Below are positions 21,786-64,000 of a stretch of 64,000 nt of DNA, in pieces (the first letter of the stretch is position 1; every line of letters starts with the position of its first letter). The DNA lies in the NCBI RefSeq assembly GCF_964355755.1, contig NC_092674.1:29946001-30010000 (forward strand), read 5' to 3'. Below the pieces are notes generated by a model. It did not search any database, was not told where the DNA came from, and saw only the letters and a list, made by a program, of their open reading frames with translations. Origin of the DNA: Antedon mediterranea. Lineage: Eukaryota > Animalia > Echinodermata. The position numbers were made by a program, and so were the translations under genes.

Positions 21786-24700
21786 ATGTTATTAGACTAC
21801 TCCGCCATTGAAGACGAGTCTCACGCGTATTATTTTGACGACGAAGACGATATGTACAGATCTCAGGCCAATTTCTGCCCTACGACAGGCAGCTACAACA
21901 TTGCTCAACAACAGGCTCAGTACCCCGGATCCGATTTTTATTACACTGAACCCAGAACGTCTCAGGAGCAACTGATGAGTACATCGACTTGGACCCCGAC
22001 TCCTTCTAGCACACGTGGAATGACAGACTGGCAAGGACAAGTGACGATGGGGTCATACATAAACCCGATGGACCAACAGACAAACAGTGTGGCACAGTAC
22101 AGTGAATCGGACAATTATTCAGGTCTTTGCGCCGTTGCCCAGGCAATCAATCGCACGCCAACCATGAGCTATCACCACCAATGGATGCGTTCTTCAACCT
22201 ACAGATTTAATCCATCCACAGGTTAGTACACCTTTATCAAATTAAGGCTTAACAGTATATACACGCGATTAACAGTGCTTAACGCGCGCAGTTAGTTATC
22301 ATCACGCGCGCGTTAAATTTGACAAACGGTTAAAACCACGTGTGAATGATTTTATTGCTAATTAAAACCCCGAATAGCTTCTATAGTAGTAAAACCAACC
22401 ATAACTTAATACAGATTGTAAATCTTATGGTTATACGAATGATGCATATAAAATGTTAGGTAAGTACGTAGTATAATTCAGAAGAAGTACCTCTCATGTG
22501 TATTTAAGGGCGCATGAAATTAGTCTTGCGGCATTTATACCACAACTTACGACAACAATGGTTTCTGTTTCGCCTTACCTCCGATCTGATTCTCTGCCCT
22601 TGTGGATTTACAATAGTGTAACATGAATGTATTGGAATACGTACCAATTTTCATCAAGATAGGCATTTAATAGACTTTGGATCTTACAATATTACATTTT
22701 TGGTGCATACGTTGTTGGGATATATTTCCTCCAGTCATCAAAGGTAAACTTTAGAGGCTTTATTAGAATGTATTACATCTCTGTCTAATATTGAATAACA
22801 GGGTGATTACCCCTGTAATATCTAGAGCTAGATGAAAAAGTTTTTAGTACCGTAGTTCTTAGTATTATATTTTAGACCAGGAAATGGTGATATTTTCAAG
22901 AGATAACAGAGTAAAGACATTTACTCTTATCTATGGTGTGAGCCAGGCAACCGATAGACAATTAATACTTATAGACAGATCATTCATTGGATTTAAGTGA
23001 CAATCAAAATCATTTAAAATAATTCTCAAACTTACCATAAGGTTTACAAATAAGAAAATACTTTACTTATAGTTTTTATTTCTATACGATTGGAAAACAT
23101 AAACATTTTGACACATATGGCGTGTCATACTTTAGCTGGGTACGGACAACAATAACAAAAAAAGAAATAACCATGGAGAATTCTGTGGGATAATAATAAT
23201 AATAATAATAATTTATTTGGAAGCTACACTTTTGAAACAGTGGCACACTTGAATGAAGGTGCGTCCAGAGTAATTAAAATAAAAGGGTAAAACAAATTAT
23301 ATAACAATAGACCTATTTACAAGGAAACTTAAACTAAATTATGTAGAAAATATAAAAAAATAACATTAACAAAAAATTTCAGTAATACAGGATTTAAAAA
23401 ACACAGAACTAAGCATTTTCATTGATAAAGATTTGATGTAATATTGTGAACGCTTCTACAATATTCCAGATGATTGACGCCAAATATTTATTTATCTTCC
23501 TATTCTAACACAGATTTTATTATTTTATTGTGTCATCATAATAGTGTTATGGTCTCATAATTACATCTCCTTATTTACTGACTTTCAACTTTTCAACTAT
23601 GGACATTCCACGCTATTGTTTTCAGGAATGGGGACCCGGATGGGGACCAGCTATAGTTTGATCATGGAGAAATAAACTTATTTTTTTCCATGGTTTGATC
23701 GAAGTCGATTCGGGTAGATTCTGCCATGGTGGAGAAATAAGTTATTTCTCCATGATTCTGCAGAGAGTTGTGCATTTTTATTTATATAATTATTGTTATT
23801 ATAACTTTTTACTACATTGTCATGGAGGAATTTACTATTTTGTTTGTTGTTATTAATCATTAAAATTTAATGAGGCAATTTACTCTTATTCTTAAATAAA
23901 TTTTAAGTTCAGTATGCCTGTTATTGTCAGTTTTTGTTATAGTTTAAGATTAATATGTTTTTAGAATGTCTTCCTTAAGAAGTTTTACAGTTCTAGTTTG
24001 ACGACTATACCGAAAAGTGTGCTGCCACTGATAAAATTCTGAATATTCTTTATTTTTGAACACAGAAATTATATTATATTATAATATTAGAATATTAAAA
24101 TTCATAACAATAGAAATATTAAATTAAATACCTAACATATTAAAATACCTAACAATATAATTTAAAAAAAAGTAAAGTACAACAAAAGTGTGAAAAACAG
24201 GATCACTAAAAACAAGCAAAAGTTTGTGATCTGTGGCCCCTTAACTCTCACCCTGACATACTAATAAATATTAATAATAGGGCTGTTATTAAAATAAAAT
24301 TTGGTAAAATGAACATCATGATGAAACAGCCTGATAACGTTGAAACTGCCGCCTTGTTGTGATGTGGTAGTTTCTTACTTACACTAAAGTTGTTTATTTA
24401 TTTTATTGAACAGTGCCGCTAACGTTGTTTACTAATTAATTAACATAAACTGACTTATCTTGCTTCATTAAAGCCTTAGGCGGCGCACTTTGATCAATTT
24501 AAAAAAGAGTTGATTAGGAAAGAAGAAGACTGGTAAATGTTTGTTTTAAAATATATAAATTGGTCGGCTACTTGAATGTACATGTCGGCAAGTCTTTGAT
24601 GTCAATTCTCAATTTAGTTATAAGACTTACTTATTACAACATATAAATTAAGTACAGGTAATAAGAATATTAAAACTAACCACTATTGTCATCATCAATA

Positions 24701-25826
24701 TCATCAACATATCATCATCATCAACATATCATCATCATCAACATATCATCATCATCAACATATCATCATCATCAACATATCATCATCGTCAACATATCAT
24801 CATCATCAACATATCATCATCATCAACATATTATCATCATCAACATATTATCATCATCAACATATCATCATCATCAACATATCATCATCATCAACATATC
24901 ATCATCAACATATCATCATCATCAACATATCATCATCATCAACATATCATCATCATCAACATATCATCATCATCATCAAAATATCATCGTCATCATCACC
25001 TTATCATCATCACCAACATATCATCATTAACATATCATCATCATCATCATCAAAATATCATCGTCATCATCACCTTATCATCATTAACATCGTCATCATC
25101 AACAATGTTTGGACTTATTATTATTATTATTTTTAATATTATCATTATTATTTTTATTTTTTCCAGGTAAAACAAGAACAAAAGATAAATACCGTGTGGT
25201 TTACACGGATCATCAACGTCTGGAGTTAGAGAAAGAGTTTCGATTTAGTCGCTACATCACCATCCGTCGCAAGTCCGAGTTAGCTACTTCACTTGGATTG
25301 TCAGAACGACAGGTAATATATGATAAATTTGTATTTAGTAATTTTTTTAACACTTGCACACTTTCCATTTTTTCCCTAAAACTGGTATTCCCACACACAG
25401 TGTAGGCCTAACATGGTAAACTTTGGTTAAGTCCGCACTCACGATAGCTCTGATGACAGCAGTCGTCCCTGCATCTACTCAACTGTTAATATGGCTTGGC
25501 ATTTAAAGCTATATTTTCTAAATTAGATTAGATAAATTTACTCATTTTGATTTTATTCAAAGGTTAAAATATGGTTTCAAAACAGAAGAGCAAAGGATAG
25601 AAAACAAGCTAAAAAGCAAGGAGTCCAATTGGATGAAACTGAAGGACCAAAACAGACCAATCAGAGAACAGGTTTTATTGAAGGAGTAGAAGACTATTCA
25701 AATCAAAAAGAATTGATGAGAAACATTCCAGCGTCTTACAGAATTACTGACCAACCAGCAACTGTTTTAATAAAAGAGGAACCCATTTCTAGCCAATCAC
25801 AAACGTCGTGTCTCAAGTCTTTATAA
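21786..25826 (+). CDS. Cdx: ParaHox homeobox protein Cdx/caudal (281 aa); exons 21786-22221, 25167-25312, 25563-25826
   Basis: Hexapeptide HQWMR, then [64 protein letters not shown]. Diagnostic Cdx homeodomain with the typical intron between SERQ and VKIW; splice phases consistent. Confidence 0.97.
23190..23640 (-). mobile_element. Probable degraded 3' end of a non-LTR retrotransposon in Cdx intron 1
   Basis: On the minus strand AATAAA is followed by an (ATT)n tail at 23190-23218; the body is too degraded to translate. Confidence 0.35.
24689..25102. repeat. (CAT)n-derived minisatellite, unit about ATCATCATCATCAACAT
   Basis: Directly visible; source of the His/Ile/Ser ORF 24686-25030. Confidence 0.95.
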
Positions 25827-26889
25827 ATCTTGACGATATTTGATCAAAACATTTCAAAGTTGACAGAAAGAAAGAGAGAGAGAGAGAGAGATTGATAATT
25901 GAGAACGAGGTTTTTTAAGCTAAAACCACCTGAAATAAGTGTTTGTAAATAATATACATATTTACTTTTATAAGTATTTTTATAGTTTAATATGTTTTGA
26001 GTATATAACATAAAAATACTAAAGTATCTCATTCCATTCTTGCCTAGTTTAGTATAACTTAAAACTATATTATTCCATGTCTTTTTCAGTTCTTTCAATA
26101 GCAATATTTTTAAAAGTAATGTAGACCTAACCATCTTTTTAAACAAAAGTCGTATCGTACCTTTTAAATTACGCTTTTCTTCGGAGTATTGCGTTAATTT
26201 TAACAGAAAGTCGTTGGAAACGCACATGTTTGACGCATTATATTATTATGTACTGTCTTATATTTTGTTTTATTTTACCGGTACACAGAAAGTTACAATA
26301 TTAAATTGTTAAATATGAAGTTTATTTATTATTGAACCACTAACACGTTTAATTTTTTGGAAAGTTTCTACACATGTACCGTATTGTATTGTACCTATTG
26401 TTCGTATTGTACGTGAAAATCAGGAATGCACGCACGCGCGCATGACTTTAAATAGTTTAAAATATTTTAATCGTGTGACTATGGCGTTGGTTTTAAACTA
26501 ATGTATCAATTTAGATTGTCGTTCTATGATCAACACCGACATTTATATTTGCTCTGCAAATAGACCTTTCGTCTGGGACACGATGTTAAGCTGATAATAC
26601 ATCCGATTATGGTCAGATAGTGACTCTCATAGAAGCTAGTTACATTAAACTTATCAATATTCTATTGTTCAATATTGTGTTAGGGCTGTCGATTTGTGTG
26701 AAGTGGTCCGACCTCCTCACAATAGAAACCACAGTTCTTGAACTTTGCTGATAAGCGGGGCCTACTAAAAATTAAGGGACTCGATCGAGTGCGCTTGTTA
26801 ATACGTACGACAGGATCAATTGCACGATTTCATAAATTGTTATGTATTATTATATTATGACTGGCCCAGATGATTGATACGGTTGTTAT

Positions 26890-28417: not shown

Positions 28418-28433
28418 TAGCGCCCTCTATTGG
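28418..28433 (-). promoter_or_regulatory. CTCF-like motif CCAATAGAGGGCGCTA between Cdx and Xlox
   Basis: Close match to the CTCF core CCASYAGRKGGCRSY; motif match only. Confidence 0.5.
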
Positions 28434-30454: not shown

Positions 30455-33400
30455 TTAATATATCGATTTTTGTATAATGTTTTCAGGATACAACATTGGC
30501 GGTGAAGTTGACGAGGACGTTGACGTAGATAAAGGAAAAGTGTCTGTTATTGGTGAATTTAATAACGGAGACGTTGCACACGCAACCGGTGACGTAATTT
30601 TAGTAGGTGATGACGTTTCTGTTGGTGACGACGAAGTGGCAGACAATGGTGAGGTTGGTAGTTCAGTTTTTGCGTTTGCATTTTCGTCCAATGAAATTTT
30701 CTGTTCGTTTTCATTCTCATTCGGTTTTTTCTTGGCTTCCTCCTTTTTCCACTTCATTCGTCGATTTTGGAACCATATTTTGATGTGCCGTTCAGTCAGA
30801 TTGAGCAAGGCGGCCAGTTCTATGCGCCTAGGCCTAGAGATGTATTTATTATAATGAAATTCCTTCTCAAGCTCAAGTAGTTGTCCACGTGTATATGCCG
30901 TCCGTGTGCGTTTGTTCTCGTCGAAATCTGTAAACGATGCGCCTAGAAAATACAAACAATTAATAATGTTAAGGTTACGATTCATTACGTACTTCATTAA
31001 AAGATCATCGCTAACACCTCAATACGAAGAAACCATGTATAGATCTTGTGAAACTTAATAAGTTAATAGCATTAGTTCTTTAAGGAAATGACAACAATGC
31101 GAAAACCAATTATCCTGCACACAGTGATAGAGAGAATAAAATAAAAATAATGTCTCTCCGCGGTTACTTCTTGTCATCAAAAGTTAATCTCTTATTATCA
31201 AAAGTTAATCACAAATTAACAAAGTTCGAAATCATTGACATAATAATTATATATAATAAATAATATAAACAGGCAAAGAACATTAATTCCAAACCGCTCT
31301 CGGTGATATACTGTAATTTAATTAATTTGAAACAATATGAGGAAATCTGTGAGAATGAGAACAATTCACAATCGTCGATAGGGTTTGGGAAATATATCAA
31401 TTTAATACAGTAGTACGGTAGTTAATAAAAAAAACGGCAAGCGTGTGTTTAGTTATTTACTGTTATTTTTGTCTTTTGTGAGAAGCATGTCGTCTGATAT
31501 CACTTTTTATAACATAATTAATGTTAGCTATTAGCACGCGCCGCACCTGGGTTTGTAATATCTATGACTAATGTGTAAAAGGTGCTGCACACACAATACA
31601 GGCAGCATTTGTAAAGTAAAAAAAAAAGGTAAAGGTGAGTCCCGTGTTCTCTGAACGTAGGGGAATGAGCTGTTAGGAGCTCATTGTACTAAGCCTCGGC
31701 ATTATGTGGTAGGGTGGCCAGTTCCTTTCAACACCGCCTTATTTCTCCCTAGTATTTTTCAACCAAGTACTCATTTATTTTTAGTTGTCGGGAATTGAAC
31801 CCGGGTCTATCTGTATGACAGTCAAGTGTCCTAACCACACGGCTATCCAACTCCTTTGTTACAGGATCTATTATAATCGGGTATGAGAACAAATGTTATT
31901 AGGACAAGTTTCTATTTTATATCTTCACGTACACATAGCTAATTACACAAGACTAATTGAATAAACTAGCATTGTTTTAGATTGAATCCTGTCATTGACG
32001 ATATGTGTACGCTCCCATGATTCCCAAGAAAAATAGCACAGTATATAGGCGGCAAAATGTGATATTTATTTAAAATAAACGGCTGATTTACATAGCTACG
32101 TTTGTTAACGTTTTGCGTCGGATCTGTCCACGCTAAAAGAAAGGCCATAAAAGCGCACTCGGCGCGGCTTCTTTTTATCTGAAAAACAGATTCCAATATC
32201 GATTTAATATACAACAACTTTGTTCAGTCGCAACTTATATTATTTGCAATTCCTAAGTAACGGTGTCCGCAGCTGCGCAGGCTATATATTTTACTCGCTA
32301 GGTACACCGTCCAAAGGTCCAGTGTAGCGGCTGCGAGGCAAATACTACTACTTGCGCTAGAGTGTTTTCGCTTCTTTGAAGTTTACCGGAAAACGTCCTC
32401 CAGTTTTCTGTGTGTATACAGACGAAGAAATGATATTTGAACGTATCCAATCACAATGATGAGGAGGTCGGCTCGCCGATAAAACATTAACCCGGTAATT
32501 AAGTGCCGAACGATATGAAATTGAATTGTATGTTAGGCCTACAGACTGCGTGTGTACCAAGCCATTTTGACATTTCAAAACAAAACATGCGAACATATAA
32601 ACACAATTCAATATACTTTTTAACGTGTTTACGTTTAAATAAAGCTTAGTGTATCACAGTTTCAAACATTGAGTTTTATTCAATAGTTATACAGTTACTA
32701 GGATTAAATACATATCACGTAATTAGTATATATAAACACAACAAGCACAGAACATTAATTCTAAACCGGTGATATACTGAAAATGTTTTAATTAATTTAA
32801 AACGATAAGATGAGGAAATCTTGTGAGAATACAGTGTTATACAGTAGTACATTTGAGTATTTTCGTATTGAATTTCTCAATTTTGCCGATCATTGTATCG
32901 TTATAATATTGCAAAAATAATTAGTTTCTTTAACTTCTATTTTATTTCTCTTTCCATATTTTCCTTGAAAAGTGTGTTCCGTTATTCTCTTAGTTTTTAG
33001 TTTTTTCTATGTAAGCCTATCTTCCCTCAATTGTTATTTATTTTTGACAGTATATTGATCGTTTACCTCTTTTTGCAGACCCATGTATGTTATGAACTAT
33101 TTTTCAATAAAACGGAAATAATCATTTTTTAAATATATATTATTATATTATCAAATATTACTAGGATAACGATTAAACCAGCGACGAATAGAAATTGTCA
33201 CAGTAAATAATTTGCGATTATAACACTGATTCTCAACTGGTCATTGGATCTGTAAAGCTTTGTTCACACTCGGTACGTAAGCACATCGCAAGCGAGTTGA
33301 CCAATGACAAGCGACATTTTGAATAATCCATCTCTTGTGATTTGTCAAATTACATTGCGCTTATTACGTCCTTGCGTTGCGTCATATAGGAACAACCAAG

Positions 33401-35857
33401 CTTAAAGTAAGATTAGGAATTAAAAACGACGGTATCGGTAATGTTTTTTAATATATCGTGTTCCGTAAATGCATGCTGACGATGATATACGTTTTATGCC
33501 TATATAATCGTTTTTATTTTATTTGAGTCTCGTTCCAGGATTTAGCCTTATATCAGTAGGCCTATTTGCCCTTACTTTTTTTCTCGTTAGGGTAGCCTTA
33601 ATATTCTATATGACTCTGTATTTTAAACTAAATTTACTCCAACGATGTCAGCCTGAGAAAAAAACTAGGCCAATCTCTACCATTATTTAACGATTAGGCC
33701 TATGATCGTTTGTGATATAATAATACTTTTAGTCTTATACCGCGGTATACCATGCGTTATTCTTATATCGCAGTATACCATACTACTGCGTTGTCTTATA
33801 CCGCGGTATACCATGCGTTATTCTTATACCGCGGTATACCGTACTACTGCGTTAGTCTTATACCGCGGTATACCATGCGTTATTCTTATATCGCAGTATA
33901 CCATACCGTACTACTGCGTTAGTCTTATACCGCGGTATACCGTACTACTGCGTTAGTCTTATACCGCGGTATACCATGCGCTATTCTTATATCGCAGTAT
34001 ACCGTACTACTGCGTTAGTCTTATACCGCGGTATACCATGCGCTATTCTTATATCGCAGTATACCATACCGTACTACTGCGTTAGTCTTATACCGCGGTA
34101 TACCATGCGCTATTCTTATATCGCAGTATACCATACCGTACTACTGCGTTAGTCTTATACCGCGGTATACCGTACTACTGCGTTAGTCTTATACCGCGGT
34201 ATACCATGCGCTATTCTTATATCGCAGTATACCGTACTACTGCGTTAGTCTTAAATCGCGGTATACCATGCGCTATTCTTAAATCGCGGTATACCGTACT
34301 ACTGCGTTAGTCTTATACCGCGGTATACCATGCGCTATTCTTAAATCGCGGTATACCATACTACTGCGTTAGTCTTATACCGCGGTATACCATAATATGC
34401 GGTACTCTTTAGTTATTCTGTATACTATTACCATATTTTTACTTTTGCCTTATCTGCGTCATAATGCCTTATGAGTTTTTTGTGCATATATTACTGTAAA
34501 TACTCTCTAATAATATGTTTATAATGTAGCATTCTTTATATGGTAACTGACAACAGACTCATTTTTCAATCAATAACTTATTTTACACTACTACTGTGGT
34601 GGTTGTACCGAAGAGAACTTTTAGGTTGCAGTTGTTATTGGGGATTGTATTATAATTATTGAATATACCCGACTATTTCACTATTACTTAGTTTAGATTT
34701 GTCCATTTTCCTATAAAATACAAGACTGCATAGATAGCCCTATAAAACAATTGGTATATATAAGACAATGACTACAAAGCATTAAACCAATTAATCTTGT
34801 AACCTAGTGTCATGCTACAAACAACAATACAGTCCAAATCTTGTAACCTAGTGTCATGCTACAAACAATAATACAGTCCAAATCTTCTTAAACACAATTT
34901 GATAGAGGTACAGTTTCCTAGATTAACTTTCTTTTTTCTTTCTTTACATTCGGCAAAAGTTTTATAATTATCCGCAAAATATATATGCCTTTAATAATCT
35001 GTAAAAGTTTGAAAACTTGTTTCCAAAAAGTTGGTCAAATAAATATCTGGGAGACAAAATTTACAATGTTCTTCTAAGAGTTTGAGAGAACTATTAAAAT
35101 AGAATTGATTAATTACAACAATTATCAATTTGTATAGTTATTTATAATTTCGGAAATCAATACATTATACAAATTTAGACCTAAATTAAAATGGGAAATG
35201 TGGAAGTTAGAACAGTAAACTTTGTCACAATTTGTTTGTTGTTATTACGAACCTTTTCGACGTACCAGGTCTTTGTTAAGTAATCACTTTACTTACTAGC
35301 ACATTTTATTGTATGTGCTGCCAAGAAACGAACATTTTATTTGGCACACTAAGAAATGTTTATGTTTTAATGCCACTGAGGCCTCCCTCTGAAGGGAGTT
35401 GAACTTGTATAATTAGCGGTTTTTTTTATGACAGTTTGAACATACCTTGCCAGTTTGCTTTCCACATGTGTGCGTGTGACTTTGTCTGTTTCATCCAGGG
35501 GTAGGCTTGGTACCGTTCATTTTGGCTCGTCTGCTGCTGCAACTTCATCATCAGGGTTGCCGTGTCGGTTTGCATCTGCGAAGTCTGGTTTTGCATCTGA
35601 CAAGAAGCCGCATACTGACTTAATAAATTGTCTTCCAACTGCTGGTCTACTACGGCCATTGACGACCCTCCTCCACTACCCCCACCGCTGCCACTATACC
35701 CCCCATTTGGTAAAGTCTGCCGATTAGCGTAAATACAAGCTGGAGGCGATCCCCCATAACCCACACTTTGATTTTGACATGTTGGTTGCGTCGGTAAGTA
35801 ATGTTCCTTGTTAGTAGATGTATATAAACTGTTATAATACTGATTATTACCATCCAT
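30455..35857 (-). CDS. Pdx: ParaHox homeobox protein Xlox/Pdx (299 aa); exons 35857-35446 and 30942-30455
   Basis: N-terminal SPPACIY, hexapeptide [20 protein letters not shown], and homeodomain [60 protein letters not shown] with the Xlox-diagnostic His in TERHIK. One phase-1 GT-AG intron. Confidence 0.98.
31613..31854 (-). mobile_element. tRNA-derived SINE in the Xlox intron
   Basis: Minus strand: A-box-like TAGCCGTGTGG, tRNA-like loop CTGTCA, B box GGTTCAATTCC, body AAATGAGTAC...GGAACTGGCCACCCTACC, tail CCTTTACCTTTTTTT. Confidence 0.8.
33256..33402. mobile_element. MITE family B in the Xlox intron
   Basis: AGCTT...CCAAGCT ends, TAA on both sides, shared core. Confidence 0.82.
33729..34392. 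repeat. CpG-rich minisatellite of 28/34-bp units with the palindromic core TATACCGCGGTATA
   Basis: About 20 tandem units in the Xlox intron. Confidence 0.95.
34794..34886. repeat. 44-bp tandem duplication
   Basis: AATCTTGTAACCTAGTGTCATGCTACAAACAA(C/T)AATACAGTCCA occurs twice. Confidence 0.9.
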
Positions 35858-41014: not shown

Positions 41015-41271
41015 CGTTTGTTTTTTTATTATATAGCAGGAAATACCACAGGGATAATTCTTTGTTTATTTTGTCTTTTAGGAAAAAATCCATTTTACTT
41101 ATCACGTTAAGAACAATTATTGTTTTACTTTCTCCTCATTTAGATGTTTTATGTTCCCATTAAATACACTGAATCCATGTAATATATCTCTCATAATAAT
41201 AACAGTTTTAGTAAACAAACTACATCATAGCAAATCAATCTGTAAGGTATAGTCCCCCTGCGCAGTTGTAA

Positions 41272-41560
41272 AGCTTGGTTCCCACCAATACTTGGTTCCC
41301 ACGCGTAAGTGATTTGACCAATCACAAGCGATGGTTTATTCGAACTGTCGCCTGTCATTGGTCAACTCGCTTGCGCTGAGTTTCTAGTGAAACTTTAGAC
41401 GCAACGCAACGACGTACGAGGCCCAACGTGAGTGATTACAAACGATATTTGCGGTGCGTTTACGTCCCTGCGGTGCGTTTACGTCCCTGCGGTGCGTTTA
41501 CGTCCCTGCGGTGCGTACAAGTTACGTGTCCTCTTAATAGATGTTCTACTGCATACGTTT
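41272..41560. mobile_element. Rearranged MITE family B copy with an internal 19-bp tandem repeat TGCGGTGCGTTTACGTCCC
   Basis: AGCTTGGTTCCCAC end, shared core, and 3-4 tandem units at 41450-41516. Confidence 0.75.
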
Positions 41561-41619
41561 GTTTGTAGTAAAACTACCACGTATTTATTAAAATTACGTC
41601 GATACTTAATATTATGTAA

Positions 41620-41984
41620 AGCGCTGTCTACACTATCAAACCTTATGTGACAAAACAATGTGATTTGCCCATATATGGACATAATGATGTCATATCACCA
41701 CCATATATGGGCATATATTTATATTGACACTGTTGATTCGTCTATTTGTTATTTAAATATTTTTATATAGTTTATTTTATATCACTGTTGTTACTTTGGG
41801 AGTACGGAACCTGAACTCTTGTTATAGTGATTAGGTTCACTTTTAGTTCCTGCCTACTCCCTTAGTTTCTGTGTTTTTGTTTGTTTGTAACTGGTTTTTG
41901 GCAATAAATAATAATAATAATAATAATATCACTACCATATTTGGGCACATCATGTCAAACTAGTTTGATAGTGTAGACAGAGCT
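41620..41984. mobile_element. MITE family A interrupted by a ~210-bp retroposed insert
   Basis: Both TIRs present; the insert 41717-41925 ends in AATAAA plus (TAA)n. Confidence 0.85.
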
Positions 41985-42564
41985 TTAGAAACATGTATTA
42001 TAAGTATGCTATTATTATATATTAATTTATATAATTGAGATCGATATTTTTGAGAACAGAAGACAACAGAAGAAGAGCGTTTCCGAGTTGTTGCCACGCG
42101 TTTTGAAAACATGCCTTTGGCCATTTGGCTATTTCTCAGGTGATGCGTTGTTTTTATGTACTAAACATCAATCAATTTTATCGTCATATTTTTATTGCGT
42201 TGTTTATGTACACACTTCTGATGAGTCAATTATATATTGTTTTTTTGTTTTCTTGTGTGAGTTAATCACACTTTTATATTTCAATTCTCTGTTATGAATA
42301 TTGTATACATGTTCAAATATATAAATCCAAAGGCAATTAAATTACTAAAAATAATGAAAATGCTGTGAGTATCAGTGGCTGAATCTCAATGGAGATACAA
42401 AATAAATAAGCAAAAAGCTAAATCAAAACGATAAAGTAAAACAGCCCTTCATTAGTGCAACTATAATTATAATTATCTACCGGTAAGCCATCCGTGCCTC
42501 TGAGTGACGTCATCGATTATCGCGTAATCTCCACTTAGTTCTGGTATTCTCCCAACACTGTGCC

Positions 42565-45500
42565 TCAATTCATTTCCAGTCCGTTGTTATCTACTCCAAT
42601 TCTCTGTTTGCTGATTGATCTCAGTTTGCTTGTTCTCCTTGAACCGTTTTGTTGGAATATAGATTGTACTTTCAGTACGAAAAACTGACCAAGCTCAGCA
42701 AATGTTATGACACTAGCACCAATGAAAAGACCTAACTGGCCACCGATATCACCTACAGAATAGAAAAAACAAGCCCTATTAATTGCTTTATTTTCGTCTT
42801 TATCATGATTACAAATAAAATTTAAAAAAAAAAATGCTTTGTCCACTAGCGTTGTTAATTTGAGTTTAATAACCAGAGTTCTGGATATCCCTACCCTTTT
42901 ATTTCTCTTTCAGTATACACACCGTATAGTTGTCTCGATTTTTTTCAATTTCTTTGTAGACTTTTACGTCAAACAAAATATGTATTCTATGTATAACTTT
43001 GGGCATTAAAACAATTAAAATCAGCGATACTTACTAAGAAGGGCTGAGAATGTCATGGCTGCATTCTGTTTATACTCCTGAAAGTTAAGTTCTTCGTAGT
43101 ACACGTCCAGTAAGATAAAGTTTTCCCTGTTAAGATGAAAACATTTAAATCTAACCAGTAAACTAATAATTCAACTAAAATATTTTAATTTAACAGAGTT
43201 ATTATATTAGTATAGCCGCACATCAAAAAGCACTTTTATTGTTTGTACTTTTTAACGTTTCTTAAGCTTGGTTCCCATTAGGACGCAACGCAAGCGTGTT
43301 GACCAATGATAAAAGCGGCAGTTTGAATAATCCATCGCTTGTGATTGGTCAGCTCACTTACATTGCGTTTCGTTCTTCTCTAGTGTGAACCAAGCATAAG
43401 CCAATCAATAACAAATTATGGAGTTATTAGAAATTATTTCTTGAACGCTCTGATATAGACTTAAACGCGTTTGCGTCGAACGTTTGACGCTTTATATCAT
43501 CATTGAGTTTTTCCACTCACTTGATATATTCTGATTCGGAGCCATAGAGTGTTTTCAGGTCAGCTTCGACGTTTTTATTCGGTATTGATGCGTAGTTTAC
43601 CGATGTGTCAAATGTTGTGTATTTGCAGGGTACTGGACAGTCGCATTCTGGTAATTTGCCACTCTTTAACCTCTCTGGAAATCAAAATGAAATAGTGATT
43701 GAGCATAACCTGATAAATTATTGTTATAAACTACAAACAAATTAGCACAACCAGAAATTTACACGCACCCTGAAACACTACTATTTGTCATTTCTACAGT
43801 TGTAAAGGAAGTCTGTTATTAGGTAAATCAACTGTCTGGCTTTGTTGATGATGGCGAAAAATGTAGCGCAATGAAGTGCCACCGACTGGACACATAGTAA
43901 ACGTAAGTAAAACGCACTTAACTTGAAGAATTTTGTGACCTCACGATGTGCCGCTTGATAACATTTAGTCTGCGCACGCTCATAAACGTGAGCATGCGTA
44001 ATCACATAGCGCGTCGTGACGACAACGAAATGTCGCTTTTGTCAGAATGGAGAGAGATTAGTAAATTATAAGTTGCCTATTTCTTCATTACAGATTCTAT
44101 GTGGTACAAGCTACCGCTTGTCTGTGTAAATTGTCCTTTAGACTACAGAACATGGCCCATTGGCGCTTACCTAGTACATCTTTTGCGCATGAGTTCGTTT
44201 GTTTCGGCGTACACTCTGTTGCGTTACCAGGATATCTAAAAACCAATAATGACAATAATTCGTCTTATAATGTTTAATATTCTACAGAATTATAGACAAA
44301 ATGCATACAGTGTATATATGCATTCTTATTAATTAAATAAGGATACTTAAGATAATATTCTAGGACGCCCTCTATATCGTCACACAAACATGTTTCCATA
44401 GTCGCTCTCGTTAAACTAGTGGAATAAAGATCTGTTCAGGCCAACGGCTTTGTGTAAGAGGATTTATCACGATCAAGTGCGCAAGTACCGACTGGCCAGC
44501 TTATACGCATGCGTAGAGAAGGATTTAGAAGAAGAAAACATGAATACGCATATACGTATCAACTTGACGCTTTCAATTCGCGCGAACAAATTCGCCTAGG
44601 CGAAATCGGCGCGCCTACGGTTGTTTTTCCATCCGTTGAATCATAGATTAGTGTGAATGTGTATTCACTTACCTGATTGGACGGCATTGACATTCGGTAA
44701 ATATCCTGTCCAGACGACATTCAATATAACAACCAGACAGTGTATACTGGTCATAGTACGTTAGTTTGCGTGAAGGCTGGCATTTTCCATGAGGAGGATC
44801 TAAGTTTGTAACCTTCAAATAAAAACAAAATAAGCTACTTTTTAAGCTGTACGTACGGGGGTGTTGGTGGGGAGAGGGAGGCGGATGGATATATGGAGGG
44901 GCAGGGCGATGGAGATATGGTGGGGGATTGGTTTAGGGTGCGTATATTTCTTCACTTACCTGGATACGTTTAGTAGACGTAAAGGCGTGGTAGCCTGGAG
45001 GAATTGAGATGCCTTTTGATTCTATAAGAGGCGGCTCGTTCTGATCGTGTACCAGTACCTTCAATCCTGCCTCGATGTTCCCGTCCTTAGTCTCTGTATA
45101 TTCATCCTTTAATAAAACAACAATAACATTAAATATACGGAAAATGTTTTTTGTGGGACCTCATAGAAATTATTATTACATACACAACATAGTATCATAC
45201 ATATGTGTTTTGATTGTTGTTATATATGCCAAAATTGTTTTCTTTTAGGAATACCGTGACAAATCGCCTATTCATTAAGTTGAATTGATTGGATTGATTG
45301 ATTAAATGATTGATTAAATGATTGATTAAATGATTAATTAAATGATTGATTGATTAAATGATTGATTAAATGATTGATTAAATGATTAATTAAATGATTG
45401 ATTAAATGATTGATTTATTGATTGATTGGCATAGTTAAAATATAAGGTGCTCTATATTCAAATACTATACGTTCAAATTCACTGTTAAAATAATACGTCC

Positions 45501-48500
45501 AGTAAGATTGAATTACGAAATATTATTGGCTACAGAGTAAAACTAATTAAGTTTCATTGTATCGAAATCAATAATCAATAAATCTAGATTTAATGTCATT
45601 ATAATACTGCCGTACCCTTAATTAAGTTTTATTGGTTAATCCAGCGAGTCTAATATGTCATTAGCCTCCGATATAAATATTGATTTCGCAGTTACATTCA
45701 GGTACATTAACGAATCCATTATTCAACGGTTTGACTATCAAACCGAATCAATATGATATAATTTAAAATAACTTATTGACTCAAATACACCCATTTCGCA
45801 TAACAGATCGTGAAAGCTCTTAAACACAGGTAAACATGAGACATTTCCCTAAGTAGATCACCTTTGTCTAACAACAATGACAATGTTAAGGACCCCGTTG
45901 TATAGAATGCGTCACAGACGGACGCCAAGGCAATACGTTGAAAGCCTATTAACTATCTATGCGCATAAATCAAGTTTTGAATCGTATAGTAGATATGCGC
46001 GTCGTTAAACGAAATCGCACCATTTTAGTTTGCACACTTTCATCATTCATTTTTTTGCTCTTTTTTGTTGTTGATTGTTCAGCGCTTAGAGGCGCCCTGC
46101 ATTTTACGCTATCAAATTGAACATTATCATTAGTAATTATTGATATTCAATACGTCGTAATCAAAATCATAACTATGTTCTTACCTGGAGTATGTTTATC
46201 ATTATTTGTAAGCCATTTCCAGCTCCTGGTTGTTTTACCTTTAATATTGCGTTATCGCTTTCACCAGAATTAAATGTGTAACAATTCCCATACGATGTGA
46301 AAATGTGAGTGAAATTCTGGAAGAATAATATAAAGTGAGATAAAATACACTGACACTTTTGCTGCTTATGGCGCCCCATAGCCACTTGCTTGAAAGTCTG
46401 CATTTCTGTTTTTTGGTTAAACAATTCAGAAATTAACTCTAGTAAATAGATGCATACATTGACCGACGCTGTTGTGGATTTATTCTAGTAAAAATCTGTA
46501 TTGCTCAAATGTAAGTAGGGGAGAGGAAAAGGGAGTACTTTTAGCAACATCTCAAAATTTCCTCGTCACCGAGTCATCTTATTAGCAAACCTCTCAAGAT
46601 TTGAGGAGGGAGAATACTTGACTGACATTTCAATGTCAGTCGAATAGCCGTCATCATGTAAAGTGTCTTATATTAAACAATCCAAGTGAAGGACTTTCAC
46701 AATCAAATATTTTAATAACAAAAGAATGGTTGTCGTCACAGTCTTTATCATTAAACATTAATACAAAGATCTTCTGCACGTTTTTCTTAAATACAGTTTG
46801 TGTGCTGGTATGTTAGCTTTTTGTCATACCCGTCAGGTATGTTCCCGACATCATCATTTCTCGTGGTGCCACTCCCCTATGCCTAGTTTATATGCCTAGT
46901 TTATATGCCTATTTCAATGATACGTTGTTTTTCTGACAATAATATGCCGAATGTATCTATATGACAGGTCTTTAGGCGTCTCAGGTCCACGGTTATGGAA
47001 CGATCTTCCAGTGTCAATTCGGTCTGAAGCTAGCTTTGATAGCATTCAGCGAAAAGTAAAACGTTTCTTTTATGGAACATAATTTCGATGTACAGCGTGT
47101 TTGATAATGATTTCATTCTAAGAGCGCTATATATATTGAGTAATGTAATGTAAAAGTAATGAATGTATCTATATGATTATTATTCTATATTCTAATTTAA
47201 CTTATCAAAGATTATTATATTATCATCTAAATGAAATATACATACAAACTGTGGTTTGCTTATTATTAGGACATTTGAAATTCGTCACTTAATAAATACA
47301 CGAATTGTGTAAGGTATAGGCTATAATGCAAGAATGATGGAGTTGATTGAATCGTAACAACTACACCCACATTTCTTTCTTCTTGTTTAAGACCAGTTTA
47401 AGTAATTAAAGTACAATTTATTTTGTTTTCTGGTTGGATTTACTCGTTAGCTATAATTTGAGAGCAAGTAATTGGTACTGTACTTATTTTGATTAGAGTG
47501 AGTAAGTAAGTAACATGGTTAGCAGATCCTGAATAAAAGAATCTCTGACAAATTTATTATGATTGAGCTGTAAGAAAATACCAGCTGGTTTGTTTATTAT
47601 TTTTCCCACAATATAATACCCATGTGTAATTAATTATGAATTTGTAACACAAACATGTCACAGGAATTGTTTTATACTTGTAAATTTCAGACAATCGTTA
47701 TCTTATATTATGAATATGATATAGTAAGTTTGCTAGATATATACAAACCCATAGACAGGATTGTTACAGGCGGCTATCTACCAACTAACTAACTATATAG
47801 CCTAGTATAGATGAGAATAGAATGCTCGGCTATAGCTTGGTAGGATTACCCAAAACATTTTCATGAGTTGACCTATTCACCAGCACTTTAGTTTGAAAAG
47901 GGCACTTTAGGAAAAAGGGTTTCTTTCGAGCTCTACGAACCCCCTGGCAACAGTCCATGAGTAATGCAATGGAACTCTACAGACCTGTATTTTATCTGGT
48001 GAACGTTGGGAAAGACAAAAACAATGACGTAAACAAGTCGAGCGTAGCTACTTACTGTAGCAGAGCATGTCTGGTCCAGCCATTGACAGGACTCCACCGT
48101 TTCATCGTCCAGTTGAAAGCCCACCCTCCTCGTGAATTCCGATGTGTTGAACGGTTCGCTTCCGAAGATATCAGAATAGTTCTCAAGTTCTGATTCCGAG
48201 TAATAATCGTAATCTTCCGCTTCCCATAAATATTCGATGATCTTTCGTTCGTCTTCTGTCAGAGATGAATTGCGGTACCTGTAATGAAAACAGTTTTTTA
48301 CATATTGATTCTACAGTTATTGCAGTATATGTACTTTACCAACTTTTAGCATAGGCATAGCTGACGGTCTATATCCAAATGTGATATGCCCATATATGGA
48401 CATGATGTCTTATCACTACCCTATTTGGGAATATGATATTCCCAAATAGGGTAGTGATAAGACATCATATAGATATTATCACTACAGTATTTTGGGCACA

Positions 48501-48824
48501 TCACACTTTTTGTCAAACTAGTTTAAGGTCTAATTAAAGTACGTTACGTTAAATAATATACCTGTTAAAATTACATATCGTGACTGCTGGGAAGTCCATT
48601 TCAGTTAGGAAGGATAACTTGATCTCTGTGTTTACATTGAATTGAATATATTCATCAATGCGTAGTACAATCTGCCAGGTGCATACGCCAAGCCCGCCTA
48701 GGAACACCATCAACCATAGCACCTTAACGATAAATGCTTTACTTGTTGCAATGTACTGTACCCCATGTAGGGTGGTTGTGGTAGCAAACTCTTCCTCAAC
48801 TGTAGTCTGCTCCTTTCCCGCCAT
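42565..48824 (-). CDS. DEG/ENaC family (ASIC-like) channel, paralog A (467 aa); exons 48824-48562, 48278-48056, 46316-46185, 45106-44960, 44812-44673, 44235-44171, 43674-43521, 43126-43035, 42752-42565
   Basis: TTLHG pre-TM1 motif, TM1, FPAVTICNFN, YGNCYTFN, GLKVLVHDQNEPP, Cys-rich thumb (CDCPVPC), LDVYYEELN and TM2 LLSDIGGQLGLFIGAS. All eight introns are GT-AG with consistent phases. Confidence 0.95.
43265..43396. mobile_element. MITE family B
   Basis: AGCTTGGTTCCCA...TGAACCAAGC TIRs and shared core. Confidence 0.85.
45284..45428. repeat. (TGATTAAATGAT)n simple repeat
   Basis: Directly visible. Confidence 0.9.
48380..48524. mobile_element. Partial MITE family A copy with an internal perfect inverted duplication
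   Basis: Family A core; 33-bp arms at 48402-48434 and 48436-48468. Confidence 0.82.
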
Positions 48825-49640: not shown

Positions 49641-49645
49641 TTTTA

Positions 49646-57796: not shown

Positions 57797-60700
57797 ATGT
57801 CAGACAAGCAGAGTTTAGAAGCGGAGTTTGCAACCAATACCACCCTTCATGGACTCCAGTATATCGTCACAAGTAAACGCTGGATTTTCAAGCTACTATG
57901 GGTGTTGGTATTTTTGACGGGATTAGGGTTGTGTGTCTGGCAAATCAGCCTACGATTTAAAGAATATCGGATGTTCAACGTCAATACTGAAATTAATCTG
58001 ACGTTTGTGAATGAACTCGACTTTCCAGCCGTTACCATCTGCAATTTTAATAGGTACGGTGCAATTAATTGTAAAGTTGAATGAAGAAAGTCAGCTAGTC
58101 AGAGTAGGCATTCTATGACGTGTATAACTAGTGTGAACGCATCTGAAGTTACTCTATCACCTGTGTGGAAAGCTTTTTTTCCACTTGCAACGTAACGCAA
58201 CGTAAGTGATTTTACCAATCACAAGCGATGGATTATTCAAACTGTCACTTGTCATTGGTGAACATGATTGCGTTGCGTCTACGTTATATTGCGTTACGTC
58301 TCTAGTGGGAACCAAGCTTAAGTGCGCCAAAAATAATTTGACCAATTACGACTCGATGGATCATCTGTGTCTGTCGCTTGTGATTGATCAACTCAAGCGT
58401 GGTTCCCACTAGCGACGCAACACAAGGACGTAACGCAACGCAAGTGAATTGACCAATCACAAGCGATGGCTTATTCGCTTGATTGCTAACTGTCTATAAC
58501 TTCGCTTGTCATTGGTTAAAACGCTTGCGTTGCGTTTACGTCTTTGCGTTACGTTCTCGTGGGAACCAAGCTTCAGGTAGATCTCTTATAAAACTACAGT
58601 ATTTTTCAACTTTCAGGTATCGAAGATCAGCTCTAACTGACGGTGATTATGAAATTATAGAGTATCTATGGGAAGCCGAAGAATATGATTATTTTTCGGA
58701 TGGCAGCTATTCTGATGGTAGCTTTGACTACGACAAAGTATTCACAGATGCCGGAAACTTTAGTACGTCTGAGTTCACAAACAGAACTGGCTTTCTTCTT
58801 AATAACGACACGCTTTTGACATGCAAATGGAAAGACAAATCGGGGTGTACAAATGTGGTGAGTGTTGTCGGAATTGTATTTAAAGCTCTATCTTCACTAT
58901 CAAACTTTATGTGACAAAATATGTAATGTGCCCATATATACATAGTGATGTCTTATCACTACCGTATTTGGGCATATCACTACCATAAGTGGGAATATCA
59001 CACTTTTTTTGTCAAACTTGTTTGATAGTGTAGACAGAGCTTAAGATCTATTCTAATGTTCGCTTCCGAGGTTTATCATAGATAAGTTAGATAACTCCTT
59101 GTGGTGGTTAGACGTTTCTAAGGTTTGGTTTACATGCACTTCTATGGTTTACACGTAGTAGTCTAAAGTATGGTTTACACGTAGTAGTCTAAAGTATGGT
59201 TTACACGTAGTAGTCTAAAGTATGGTTTACACGTAGTAGTCTAAAGTATGGTTTACACGTAGAAGTCTAAAATATGGTTTACACGTAGTAGTCTAAAGTA
59301 TGGTTTACACGTATTAGTCTAAAGTATGGTTTACACGTAGTAGTCTAAAGTATGGTTTACACGTAGTAGTCTAAAGTATATGATTTTACAGCTACGCCTT
59401 ATAGGCATGGTTTACACGTACTTTTAAGATGTGTTGCAACATTAACAGTGTATATATAGGCCAGATATAGGCCTATGATTAATTTTACAGTACTTGCTTT
59501 CCCAGAATAATTTATTTTGGAACAATACACAGGAGTGTAGGTCTACGTTTCTTTGAAGTTCAAATGCAAATATAGTTAATTAGTAATAAGAACTGAATTA
59601 ATATATTGTATTCTAAAACAGTGAATAATCAAACAACAATTACGAGAGAATTAAATTACTGAATGTTTTATGTAACGTGTTACCTTGACATACTCATCTT
59701 AATAACCTAGCAATATTGGCAACAGTAACCGACGTACATTTCAGGTAATACACCATAATAATGCTTTAAAGCTCAGGTACAGGCATGGATTTTAAATTTA
59801 ATATCTGATTAATTCTACATAAATCAAATATTTGTAACATAAATAAAGATCGATAATTATCGGAATGTATGATCAATAGAATTTTTTTGCCCGCACCTGG
59901 CCTTTAATGTTCACATCATCTTACGAATATTCATAAGGACACACATTCACACGCACCTGCAACATACGCACATGTCAACGAGATTGAAGTCAACCATGAC
60001 TGAGAAGGTGAAAATTGTGTGTAACCTCGTTAGCCTCCAATCTTACAAGTATAATTTCACCTGCTATGTTTAGATACATTAATTGTACTATTTCAAGAAT
60101 CTAAATGGTATAACACATTACTTCTCCTCCTAAAAATGATTCCCAATTAAGTTCTGTAATGAGAAAGTGCAATTATGTTGATACATTTCAGAATTTTACT
60201 CACTTGTATACGTCATACGGAAATTGCTACACATTCAACTCTGGATTGTATTGGGACATCTTGAAGGTCAGACAACCTGGATCAGGAAATGCCCTACAGA
60301 TAATGATTGACATACAACAAGTAAGAGCCTAATTGTATTATATACCGTTTGCTAGGTTACGATGACGCTAAAAAACGATGCGCGCGCAACACCAAACATT
60401 TAACCAATCATAATTAGTTTAGTAATAACGTCGGTTGTGATTGGTCAAATGTTTTTTGTTGCGTTAAAACTTTTGTTACGTTCTCCTCCTGCAGCTAGAG
60501 AGAGAGATGCGCGCAATTTTTACTTTTATTGATCTTGTCAAAAGTCCATCGATAAAATGACATTGGTGTCAAAGACCGTAGTTATTGTCTTTATTATGTT
60601 ATACGTGAGAGCGAGCTTATACGTATGAAACGCCATATCTGCCAAAACATTCATCTTTTTACTAATATTAATTTGAAACTCCGTCTAGAACCTTGACTAC

Positions 60701-62627
60701 CTCGTACATTGTACTTAGCTCTATTTTTTGGAGCTTTCAACAAGTTACATAAATTGACTGTCTTGTAGTATCACGTTTATAAAACAAATGACTATACTTA
60801 AATCAAAGATGATTTAAATGCGTCTTTTTCTCCAAGGATGAATACACAGAGAAGCCAGAGGGCAACTTAGAAGCCGGCCTGAAAGTATTGGTACATTCAC
60901 AGGACGAACCACCACTTGTGGAGTCTAAAGGCTTTGGAGTCCCTCCGGGTGTACACGCCTTCGTATCTACACGTAAAGTCAAGGCAAGTACTTTATATTA
61001 GAAACCACGATTTGTGTCTACCTACGTACACAACTATTATTAATATGTATAGTTAAGCTTGATTCCAACGCAAGGACGAAGGCATAACGAAAGTGAGTTA
61101 ACCAATGATCAATCGCGTTTTTTATTGGTCAAATCACTTGCGGGGCGCTACGTCATTGGGTTGCTTTTTCCAATTGGTCTAGGCTCCAAGCTCTTTAATG
61201 ATGTCAATAACTTTCCAAATGCTATAGGTTGAAACACTAGATCAACCATACGGTCATTGTGACAAGTCATTGAAGTTACAATACTATCGTGTGTACACGG
61301 TCTCTGGATGTCTGCTAGAATGTCGACTTAAAAATATCGTGGAACATTGCGGATGCAGACCTATACGGTAGTGTTTTTTTGTTGTCAGAATTGCTCACTC
61401 TCTGTATTTATTATGGTTTTACGTTTACCTTTGATTTAATATTCATAACTTAACATACAGTACATCTCCTAACACATTCACTTAGCGTATTAATTCCTAA
61501 CATATTCATACATTACCATATTTTGTGTAATTTAAAATAATAGTGATAATCGGTTGGTCCCACGTACGTAAGACAAAAAAAAAAATAATACGATTGGTTA
61601 ATCCAAATCATATTTTATTGATGACTTAATTTACAATAATTACGTTAATACAATATGACGTAGTTACAATGATGACATAGTACAAAGATGACATCATAAA
61701 GATAAAATGACAATGACGATTATGACTAGATTAGATTATAGCATGATACAGATTATGAAGTAATAATACTGACTAAAATACATACATTTACATAATTGTA
61801 ATTGTAGATACCCAGGAGCAAACGATCACAGAGAATGCACACCAAAAGAAACCGAAGGTTGCGCCTCAGATGTACTAAGTATGCTATTCTGATATTTGTA
61901 TATAAAAAGTATCAACTGTTATGGATTGTTGACTCTACTGAATATCTTCTCTTCTTGTTACCTTTCTCTAGGAAAGTTAAAGAACGGTACACTTGAAGAG
62001 TGCGATTGCCCAGTTCCATGCGCGTACACTTCGTTCACAACGTCAGTGACGTACGCTTCCATACCCAACCTATCAGTAGAGGATGAGCTATATGAATCTT
62101 ACAATGATTCAAGTGCAGAAATATCGTAAGGCTGAGACTATTTTTAGTTAAGAGGGGAGGGGGTTCCTCATGCCCCTTCCGTCTGCATCTAATCAATCTA
62201 CAAAATATGGACGGTCCATCATTTCCAATTTGGCAAGAAAATGATCGAATATTCAAAATCCACAAGTCTATTTATATAATTATTAAGAATAATCCTTCAT
62301 TAGTGGTAAAGCCTTGTCTACACTATCAAACTTTATTTGAAAAAAAATGTATGGACATGATGATGTCATATCTCTATCATATTTGGGTATACCCTACTGG
62401 GCTCGTCACACTTTTTATGTCAAACTAGTTTGATAGTGTAGACAGAGCTTTACATTTCATTTAAAAACAACTACTCGCATTTTTTATTTTCTGTAGAGAC
62501 AATTCTGAAAACGTTACAACTATTTGTTTTGATAGGAAAAATTATATAATACTTGATGTATATTTTGAAGAGCTCAATTTACAAGTATATAAACAAACTC
62601 CAGCCATGACGTCATCAGCTCTTCTTA
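57797..62627 (+). CDS. DEG/ENaC family (ASIC-like) channel, paralog B, 3'-incomplete; exons 57797-58053, 58617-58857, 60192-60320, 60837-60983, 61228-61367, 61808-61878, 61972-62125, 62536-62627
   Basis: TTLHG, FPAVTICNFN, YGNCYTFN, GLKVLVHSQDEPP, CDCPVPC and LDVYFEELN. Intron positions and phases match paralog A (exons 4, 5, 7 and 8 have identical lengths). The TM2 exon was not found before 64000. Confidence 0.94.
58171..58572. mobile_element. Cluster of MITE family B copies (58171-58318 and 58396-58572, with a fragment between) in intron 1 of channel B
   Basis: GTGGGAACCAAGCT TIRs and shared core. Confidence 0.88.
58884..59041. mobile_element. MITE family A
   Basis: TIRs with TAA on both sides. 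Confidence 0.88.
59122..59420. repeat. 26-bp minisatellite TATGGTTTACACGTAGTAGTCTAAAG
   Basis: About 9 tandem copies. Confidence 0.95.
61056..61193. mobile_element. Degraded MITE family B copy
   Basis: AGCTTGATTCC...CCAAGCT ends, with internal ACCAAT and ATTGGT. Confidence 0.55.
62310..62449. mobile_element. MITE family A
   Basis: TGTCTACACTATCAAAC and GTTTGATAGTGTAGACAGAGCT TIRs. Confidence 0.85.
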
Positions 62628-63364
62628 GTAAGTACTTTTTATTTTAACCATTGAATAAAACAAATAATTTGTTTAAATATAGTCCGTACTTAAAAATGTC
62701 CCAACTTCAAGTTCATGTGGTCATATAAAAACAATCGAATCTTTCTCCAAAATTGTAGTTAAAGCTTGTAAAAATGTAAATGTACACACATGGCGTTTCA
62801 GGCCCGTATCCAGGGGGGGTGCGTTGGGTGCAGACGCACCCCCCCAAGTCCCAAAAGGTCCACTATTTCCTCGGTTGGTATTTTTTCTTGTCTTGTTTAA
62901 CTAAAGACAATATCATTATATATATACAAAATTTACATTATCAATGGTATACAAACAAAAATATGCTAATATAAAATGAAAAAATACCGGTAATTAAATT
63001 ACGGAATCTGAACTGACTACAAACTCGATGTAAAACATGCGCAGTCGATCATGTGACGACAAGCAATAGCTTAGCGCTTCATGTACGCGGTACGCGGTAA
63101 AGTGTTTGCTGGAGAAATACCATGGATTAAAGAATAGAAGGATATGCATCGACGTGAGATCAAGGGTTCCTTGACTCTCGCCGACAGACCGCGGACCGCC
63201 CACAATGTTACAGTTTAATTAACCGCATGGTAACAACGAAACGGTCGCGTGCCTAATATATTGTTTACTGCACATGTGCAACGACATTTAACCGTGTTGA
63301 CTACGCTTCTTTCGCGCGTTCTTTGTTGCACTGTATGTATTCATACATATTTGAACAGTATAAT

Positions 63365-63553
63365 CAGTGGCGTAACGGATATGTGCGCTCACTGGCTAAA
63401 CCGAAGCTTGGGGCCCATGAGCAGTGCCCAGAGGAACAGGCATAAAATATGTCGAAAATGCTAAAAACGTCCGAGGCCTCGATCTTTGAAACTTTTGGAG
63501 GGCCACTTAGGTTTCCTAAACAAGTGGCTTCAGGCCTCTGCCTCACGCCATTG
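63365..63553. mobile_element. hAT-like MITE
   Basis: Imperfect TIRs CAGTGGCGT...ACGCCATTG; no clear 8-bp TSD. Confidence 0.45.
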
Positions 63554-64000
63554 AAAACAGTTATTAAATTACATTTTATGTTATTGTGAAGACCTTAGTG
63601 TAGGCCTACTTCATCAATATACCAGATAAAAACAATACTATATTGTTATTGGCTTAGAATTGTAGATGCTATAATTGTAATTAGTATAGGTTTCTGCCGC
63701 GATTGATCTACGCTAATGTTTTTAGGCCTATGACATTAAAGTAGCATTTTATGACCTGCAGTAGCCCTACATCTGAGACAATAACTATTTATTTGTTGTC
63801 TCAGCCTACATGTAAAATTACAAAATCAGCAATACTAGGCCTAGGCTTACTAGTAAACCATATGATTTGCCGACATTGATACTGCCTAGGTAGGCCTAGG
63901 CTAATCTGCGTCGCTAGTGGGAACACGAATCGCAACTATACATAGCCAGCCAATCCCGGATCAGGGATCGCTGTTTTCATTCAATTAGACCCGGTGATTG

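What the first reader, a model, noticed from the sequence alone, without database searches (positions are those of the whole stretch)
21786..64000. ParaHox locus with a tight Cdx-Xlox pair but DEG/ENaC channel genes where Gsx is expected
Seen: Cdx(+) and Xlox(-) are convergent and their stop codons are about 4.6 kb apart. In the 28 kb 5' of Xlox I find no homeobox, but two DEG/ENaC genes, the first ending about 6.7 kb from the Xlox ATG. Established: intact clusters (amphioxus, human GSX1-PDX1-CDX2, Ptychodera, Patiria) run Gsx-Xlox-Cdx with Gsx 5' of Xlox on the same strand, whereas the cluster is dispersed in Strongylocentrotus and Ciona. Inference: either non-homeobox ion-channel genes have invaded the Gsx-Xlox interval, or the cluster is broken there while the two gut genes stay linked.
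Basis: partly seen in the sequence, partly recalled or inferred. Interest (0 to 1): 0.85.

Follow-up and report, generated by a model that had tools for sequence, protein, structure and literature searches.

The report
Feather star ParaHox interrupted by channels
In a feather star, the two gut-patterning genes Cdx and Xlox still sit side by side, but ion-channel genes occupy the place of their usual partner Gsx, which is on the same chromosome and likely lies just beyond the channels after a local inversion; similar breaks are already known in a brittle star and in molluscs.

Summary
Observation confirmed. The window matches the crinoid Antedon mediterranea (Xlox 299/299 and channel A 467/467 residues identical to RefSeq proteins). 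Cdx(+) and Xlox(-) converge, stops 4,628 bp apart. No other homeobox is in the window. An intact, spliced DEG/ENaC gene ends 6,707 bp from the Xlox ATG; a second, divergent one runs off the window. The empty 28 kb proves little (Gsx lies 31-47 kb away in intact clusters); the intervening genes are the real anomaly. Gsx is not lost: it is on the same 31.9-Mb sequence, and its accession is three numbers after channel A (chance at most about 1.5%), a proxy for closeness. A third channel likely follows. In another feather star, Anneissia, the channel on the Xlox scaffold is of the third type and the B orthologue is elsewhere, a mirror image that favours a local inversion of [Gsx...channels]. Gsx coordinates and strand could not be read. 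Detached Gsx (brittle star) and intervening genes (bivalves) are published; a crinoid case was not found in my searches. The channels lack ASIC proton-sensing residues and look BASIC-like.

The parts
21786..25826 (+). Cdx (3 exons: 21786-22221, 25167-25312, 25563-25826; homeobox split by an intron; start codon inferred)
30455..35857 (-). Xlox/Pdx (2 exons, YPWM hexapeptide, 299 aa)
   Evidence: identical to XP_071950970.1
35858..41200 (.). Xlox 5' region, mostly low-copy; spanned together with Xlox exon 1 by single contigs of organism A; about 4-5% substitutions against organism B, versus about 6-11% in channel-A introns
   Evidence: table 8; percentages computed by hand from the listed pieces
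41250..42520 (.). High-copy repeat patch, including a ~160-bp palindromic element split into two halves (41608-41716, 41923-41990); candidate breakpoint zone (inferred)
42565..48824 (-). DEG/ENaC channel gene A, 9 exons, 467 aa, same strand as Xlox; BASIC-like features
   Evidence: XP_071950423.1; a 1,273-nt contig of run X7 (RNA is the tool's guess) runs from exon 2 to 42418
57797..62629 (+). DEG/ENaC channel gene B, first 8 exons (aa 1-411 of 477); last exon outside the window; divergent from A, ATGs 8,972 bp apart; 60% identical to A
   Evidence: XP_071951626-8

Best explanation
This is a feather-star ParaHox locus in which Cdx and Xlox remain a tight convergent pair, two DEG/ENaC channel genes follow Xlox directly, and Gsx, present on the same chromosome, likely lies a short way beyond the channel array because a local inversion likely flipped the block [Gsx ... 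channels C, B, A]. Shown: the gene models, the absence of Gsx from the window, and Gsx and a third channel (C) on the same 31.9-Mb sequence. Inferred: that Gsx is near (roughly 0.05-0.4 Mb, a guess from accession spacing) and to the right of the window; that the ancestral order was Cdx-Xlox-Gsx...C-B-A; that one breakpoint lies in the repeat patch at 41.2-42.5 kb. Inferred function: Xlox and Cdx stay together through shared or reciprocal gut regulation lying between and close around them, the mainly neural Gsx is the looser link, and the channels are bystanders.
For: Only 18 of at least 1,208 numbers lie that close to a locus protein, p at most 0.015. C (XP_071951629-30) follows B (..626-8) consecutively and is not in the window. 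Consecutive RefSeq numbers mark the adjacent Gsx/Pdx pair of B. lanceolatum, while 0 of 3 pairs from Amphiura and two Lytechinus species lie within 60 numbers. In Anneissia a channel shares the 1,040,536-bp scaffold length with Xlox. The tree places it with Antedon C (100/100), and the B orthologue (96/94) is on a 359,800-bp scaffold beside another C-like gene: C on the Xlox side in Anneissia, A and B on the Xlox side in Antedon. Brittle-star precedent for the weak Gsx link.
Against: Gsx coordinates and strand were never read; no genome was held. Accession order is a noisy proxy: of 4 RefSeq Gsx/Xlox pairs from species with intact clusters only 1 is consecutive (others 171, 1,042 and 1,361 apart), and neighbours in this window differ by 547 and 1,203. 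Anneissia Gsx was not retrieved. The two Anneissia scaffolds are not shown to be adjacent, the position of its C-like gene within 1.04 Mb is unknown, and no Anneissia orthologue of A was among the 9 hits of 34 candidates. The tree has 10 rows, a midpoint root and a long-branch warning on C. In Platynereis it is Cdx, not Gsx, that is detached, so the Xlox-Cdx bond is not universal.
Confidence: 0.45

Rival explanations
1. Insertion in place: channel genes moved into the Gsx-Xlox interval and expanded there by tandem and inverted duplication. The order and strands Gsx-Xlox-Cdx are kept but stretched, possibly in comatulid crinoids generally.
For: Same accession proximity of Gsx to A; a channel on the Xlox scaffold in Anneissia; these genes do move, since A has a 92% identical copy on a 40.9-Mb sequence; molluscan precedent for intervening genes.
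Against: It predicts A- or B-type genes nearest Xlox in Anneissia, but the B orthologue is on another scaffold and the linked gene is C-like. Annunziata 2013 notes that cluster size changed without new ORFs inside.
Confidence: 0.3
2. Long-range break as in Amphiura: Gsx is megabases away on the same chromosome and the channels are merely the new neighbours of Xlox.
For: Published precedent, Gsx more than 5 Mb from Xlox-Cdx; only 'same chromosome' rests on the firmer proxy.
Against: Needs the 3-number accession gap to be chance (at most about 1.5%) or the numbering series to be very sparse; the Amphiura pair is 67 apart.
Confidence: 0.15
3. Assembly misjoin in the repeat patch at 41.2-42.5 kb; the real cluster is intact.
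For: The patch is rich in high-copy repeats.
Against: Channel-Xlox scaffold linkage in a separately assembled genome; Gsx tracks the channels by accession, which a random misjoin would not give; single contigs span Xlox exon 1 to about 40.8-41.2 kb, and low-copy pieces lie inside and right of the patch (possibly the assembly's own sample, so not independent).
Confidence: 0.05

Closest known systems
Brittle star Amphiura filiformis ParaHox locus (Parey et al., PMC11310086)
   Same: Xlox-Cdx stay closely linked; Gsx is detached but on the same chromosome.
   Different: There Gsx is duplicated and more than 5 Mb away; here one Gsx protein was found and it is likely close, with a channel array in between.
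Loosely linked molluscan ParaHox clusters (Pinctada, Bathymodiolus, Mizuhopecten, Marisa; PMC7566022)
   Same: Three genes relatively close, often with intervening non-homeobox genes.
   Different: Protostomes; the passages seen do not name the intervening genes or the interval. This case is a deuterostome.
Intact ambulacrarian clusters (Patiria PMC3710244; Ptychodera PMC3698058)
   Same: Xlox and Cdx on opposite strands and close (13 kb and 6.2 kb there, 4.6 kb here); Cdx homeobox split by an intron.
   Different: No ORFs between Gsx and Xlox there (31 kb and 47.4 kb gaps); here a complete gene ends 6.7 kb from Xlox.
Uncharacterised clade-A DEG/ENaC channels related to BASIC/ASIC5 (PMC10507113)
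   Same: HG motif, cysteine-rich ectodomain, G-x-S filter; H73 and K211 absent, with a basic residue one place before the K211 position, as described for BASIC; best non-crinoid hits are amphioxus 'ASIC5-like' proteins.
   Different: By score A is about as close to ASIC1 (299 bits) as to ASIC5 (284 bits); clade membership was not tested with a family-wide tree.

Membership tests
Intact ParaHox cluster | Xlox and Cdx adjacent, on opposite strands, no gene between | tested here: met
   4,628-bp gap; no long ORF there other than repeat-derived or antisense frames
Intact ParaHox cluster | No protein-coding gene between Xlox and Gsx | tested here: not met
   Complete channel gene 6.7 kb 5' of Xlox and no Gsx in the window
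Intact ParaHox cluster | All three genes present on one chromosome | tested here: met
   Gsx XP_071950426.1 has contig length 31,901,198, as Xlox does (shared length is a proxy)
Intact ParaHox cluster | Gsx on the same strand as Xlox, order Gsx-Xlox-Cdx | not testable with these tools
   no genome held
Amphiura-type broken cluster | Gsx more than 5 Mb from Xlox-Cdx | tested here: inconclusive
   accession proxy argues against it; no coordinates
DEG/ENaC family | PF00858 domain, two TM segments, HG motif, conserved cysteines, G-x-S filter | tested here: met
   (A: GAS, B: GGS, C: GVS)
Proton-gated ASIC | H73 and K211 equivalents | tested here: not met
   alignment: ASIC1 His pair aligns with Asn-Val, the K211 position with Gln; criterion from PMC10507113; numbering mapped by eye
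BASIC/ASIC5 clade | Groups with BASIC in a family-wide tree | not tested
   no reference ASIC/BASIC sequences were held; one search had crinoid and amphioxus rows only
BASIC/ASIC5 clade | Bile-acid activation | not testable with these tools
   needs electrophysiology

The most novel reading that the evidence does not exclude
A deuterostome ParaHox cluster caught at the first step of break-up: one small, datable inversion inside feather stars turned Gsx away and parked a BASIC-like channel gene 6.7 kb upstream of Xlox on the same strand, where it has come under Xlox gut enhancers, while a relative (Anneissia) keeps the intact state. The pair would be a natural experiment on whether ParaHox clustering is held by shared regulation.
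Probability: 0.15. Interest if true: 0.7.

Novelty: new member of a known kind. Interest (0 to 1): 0.4.

Why it matters
Crinoids are the sister group of other living echinoderms and are used to infer the ancestral cluster. If Antedon is interrupted, the Gsx-Xlox link has failed separately in sea urchins, a brittle star and a feather star, with Xlox-Cdx surviving in two of the three. That sharpens the open question of what keeps ParaHox genes together. Antedon has a staged developmental system (PMC11336682), so timing of the three genes and co-expression of the channel with Xlox can be tested. It changes no mechanism by itself.

Tried and rejected
No whole genome was held, so Gsx could not be placed by tblastn. 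Overlooked Gsx in the window: rejected. Gsx loss: rejected. The named homologue search with a Gsx homeodomain listed no crinoid among the best 120 of 1,270; Antedon Gsx came from the 150 representatives, ranked; 3 of these unnamed Gsx candidates were looked up by name (Antedon, Amphiura, amphioxus). Anneissia Gsx and both Cdx proteins were not retrieved. Contig laying gave no listed piece that bridges the repeats at about 41.3 and 41.6-42.0 kb in organism A or B; such holes prove nothing, and organism B's cover of both flanks does not show that they are joined. A 5,116-nt organism-B contig ending at 42446 matches only a repeat there and was set aside. No RNA holder was listed on record. Five look-ups in earlier findings returned nothing. 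Literature: 10 searches found no text on an Antedon ParaHox locus or on channels inside a ParaHox cluster. Figures are not held, so the state drawn for Anneissia in Parey et al. Fig. 2d and in the Chiridota paper's Supplementary Fig. 3 could not be seen; both bear on novelty. The Atlas did not name the bHLH gene and did not answer for channel A.

Full report
Identity. Xlox exon 2 matched a protein labelled Antedon mediterranea at 100%. The RefSeq proteins for Xlox, channel A and channel B map onto the window at 299 of 299, 467 of 467 and 410 of the first 411 residues. The window is therefore from this feather star or a near-identical source. No whole genome was held.

Observation. Cdx(+) has three exons ending at 25826 and Xlox(-) two exons ending at 30455: 4,628 bp apart. 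A homeodomain HMM over 4,150 six-frame segments and tblastn with 9 Gsx proteins found only these two genes. Channel A(-) has nine exons, 48824-42565, and ends 6,707 bp from the Xlox ATG. Channel B(+) starts at 57797 and its last exon is outside the window. A 1,273-nt contig of run X7, whose RNA status is the tool's guess, has one end in exon 2 and the other at 42418, 5.8 kb apart, as a spliced transcript of A would.

How surprising is the gap? In intact clusters Gsx lies 31 kb (Patiria) and 47.4 kb (Ptychodera) from Xlox, with no ORF between. The window shows only 28,143 bp, so the missing homeobox means little; the intervening genes are the anomaly.

Where is Gsx? A short recalled Gsx motif fetched 44 metagenome loci. 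One served as query for a named search (no crinoid among 120 listed) and a representative search. Ranking 208 Gsx-like proteins by likeness to ambulacrarian Gsx outside the homeodomain picked P0331, which proved to be Antedon 'GS homeobox 1-like', XP_071950426.1, on a 31,901,198-bp sequence like Xlox and the channels. Its number is three after channel A. At most 18 of at least 1,208 numbers are that close to a locus protein (p at most 0.015). A third channel, C, is numbered directly after B and is absent from the window, so it is likely just to the right. Calibration is thin: 1 of 4 RefSeq Gsx/Xlox pairs from intact clusters is consecutive (B. lanceolatum; Patiria 171, B. floridae 1,042, Ptychodera 1,361 apart), and 0 of 3 pairs from Amphiura and two Lytechinus species lie within 60 (67, 447, 9,912; the Lytechinus break is assumed from S. 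purpuratus). I left out Glandiceps (445) and an amphioxus hybrid (53), for which I read no published cluster state, and the GenBank-numbered pairs of Apostichopus and B. lanceolatum, both consecutive. So distant numbers say nothing and close numbers suggest proximity; this remains a proxy, and my reading of the numbering as interleaved positional series is inference.

Second crinoid. Anneissia has a channel (XP_033116228) on a scaffold of the same length as its Xlox scaffold, 1,040,536 bp, and two more on a 359,800-bp scaffold. In a 10-row tree the Xlox-linked gene groups with Antedon C, and the B orthologue is on the other scaffold with a second C-like gene (82% identical to the first). Outward from Xlox, Antedon reads A, B, (C), then probably Gsx; Anneissia has C on the Xlox side and B further off or unlinked. 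That mirror image is what one inversion of [Gsx...C-B-A] would leave. It is suggestive only: scaffold adjacency, gene positions and Anneissia Gsx were not seen. The best non-crinoid relatives, amphioxus 'ASIC5-like' proteins, share a 25,954,402-bp sequence with B. floridae Gsx and Pdx, a weak hint that the channels come from the ParaHox chromosome; orthology was not tested.

Assembly. Single contigs of organism A reach from about Xlox exon 1 to 40.8-41.2 kb; a patch of high-copy repeats follows to about 42.5 kb and holds a split palindromic element. These runs may be the assembly's own sample. A misjoin is not excluded by reads but is made unlikely by the Anneissia linkage and by Gsx tracking the channels.

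The channels. They are clear DEG/ENaC members, closest to ASIC1/2/5 among solved structures. They lack the H73 and K211 equivalents that mark proton-gated ASICs and carry a basic residue one place earlier, as BASIC does (against PMC10507113). They likely belong among the uncharacterised BASIC-related invertebrate channels; the database names 'ASIC1-like' and 'ASIC2-like' are not supported as functional labels. Vertebrate BASIC is expressed in intestine, which makes gut co-expression with Xlox worth testing, but nothing here shows it.

Comparison and verdict. Amphiura keeps Xlox-Cdx with Gsx more than 5 Mb away; four molluscs have close ParaHox genes often with intervening genes; Ciona has Gsx on another chromosome and Platynereis has lost the Cdx link instead. 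The pattern is thus a known kind. A crinoid case was not found in ten searches, though figures showing Anneissia could not be viewed. Probabilities: local inversion 0.45, in-place insertion 0.30, long-range break 0.15, misjoin 0.05. Interest 0.4.

What was seen of each paper: passages only for 10.1101/2023.10.30.564762, PMC11310086 (plus its supplement list and passages of supplement 1; one supplement was too large to read), PMC7351957 (supplements searched, no hit), 10.1101/2021.09.24.461635, PMC8913654 (plus a supplementary legend), PMC6307216, PMC3710244, PMC3698058, PMC2723086, PMC13079724, PMC11959729, PMC10507113, PMC11336682, PMC7566022 and PMC8848322. The neural role of Gsx, the gut roles of Xlox and Cdx, and the HG and G-x-S motif names are from established knowledge, not from a call.

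Noticed in passing
window ~5040-15505 (+): A multi-exon bHLH gene ends about 6.3 kb 5' of Cdx (PF00010). It looks like TFAP4/AP-4 by recall; PDB and Atlas did not name it. PRHOXNB (chordates) or FLT1 (Ptychodera) are the neighbours discussed, so the Cdx flank may be rearranged too.
   Followed up: partly
P0122 (XP_071941021), 40.9-Mb sequence: A 92% identical copy of channel A lies on another chromosome-scale sequence; its model is fused to a reverse-transcriptase fragment, suggesting a recent move.
   Followed up: partly
window 53990-55986: A tandem duplication of about 1,030 bp at 97-98% identity between channels A and B.
   Followed up: no
window 12381, 17782, 26884, 41608, 56774, 58881, 62306: At least seven copies of a ~160-bp palindromic, MITE-like element; one lies between Cdx and Xlox.
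   Followed up: partly
window 51111-51365 and 52149-52382 (+): Short ORFs that resemble LINE retroelement ends by recall; no Pfam match.
   Followed up: no
channel B aa ~418-424 and channel C (P0125): The selectivity-filter motif differs among the neighbours: GAS in A, GGS in B, GVS in C, hinting at different ion selectivity or heteromer roles.
   Followed up: no
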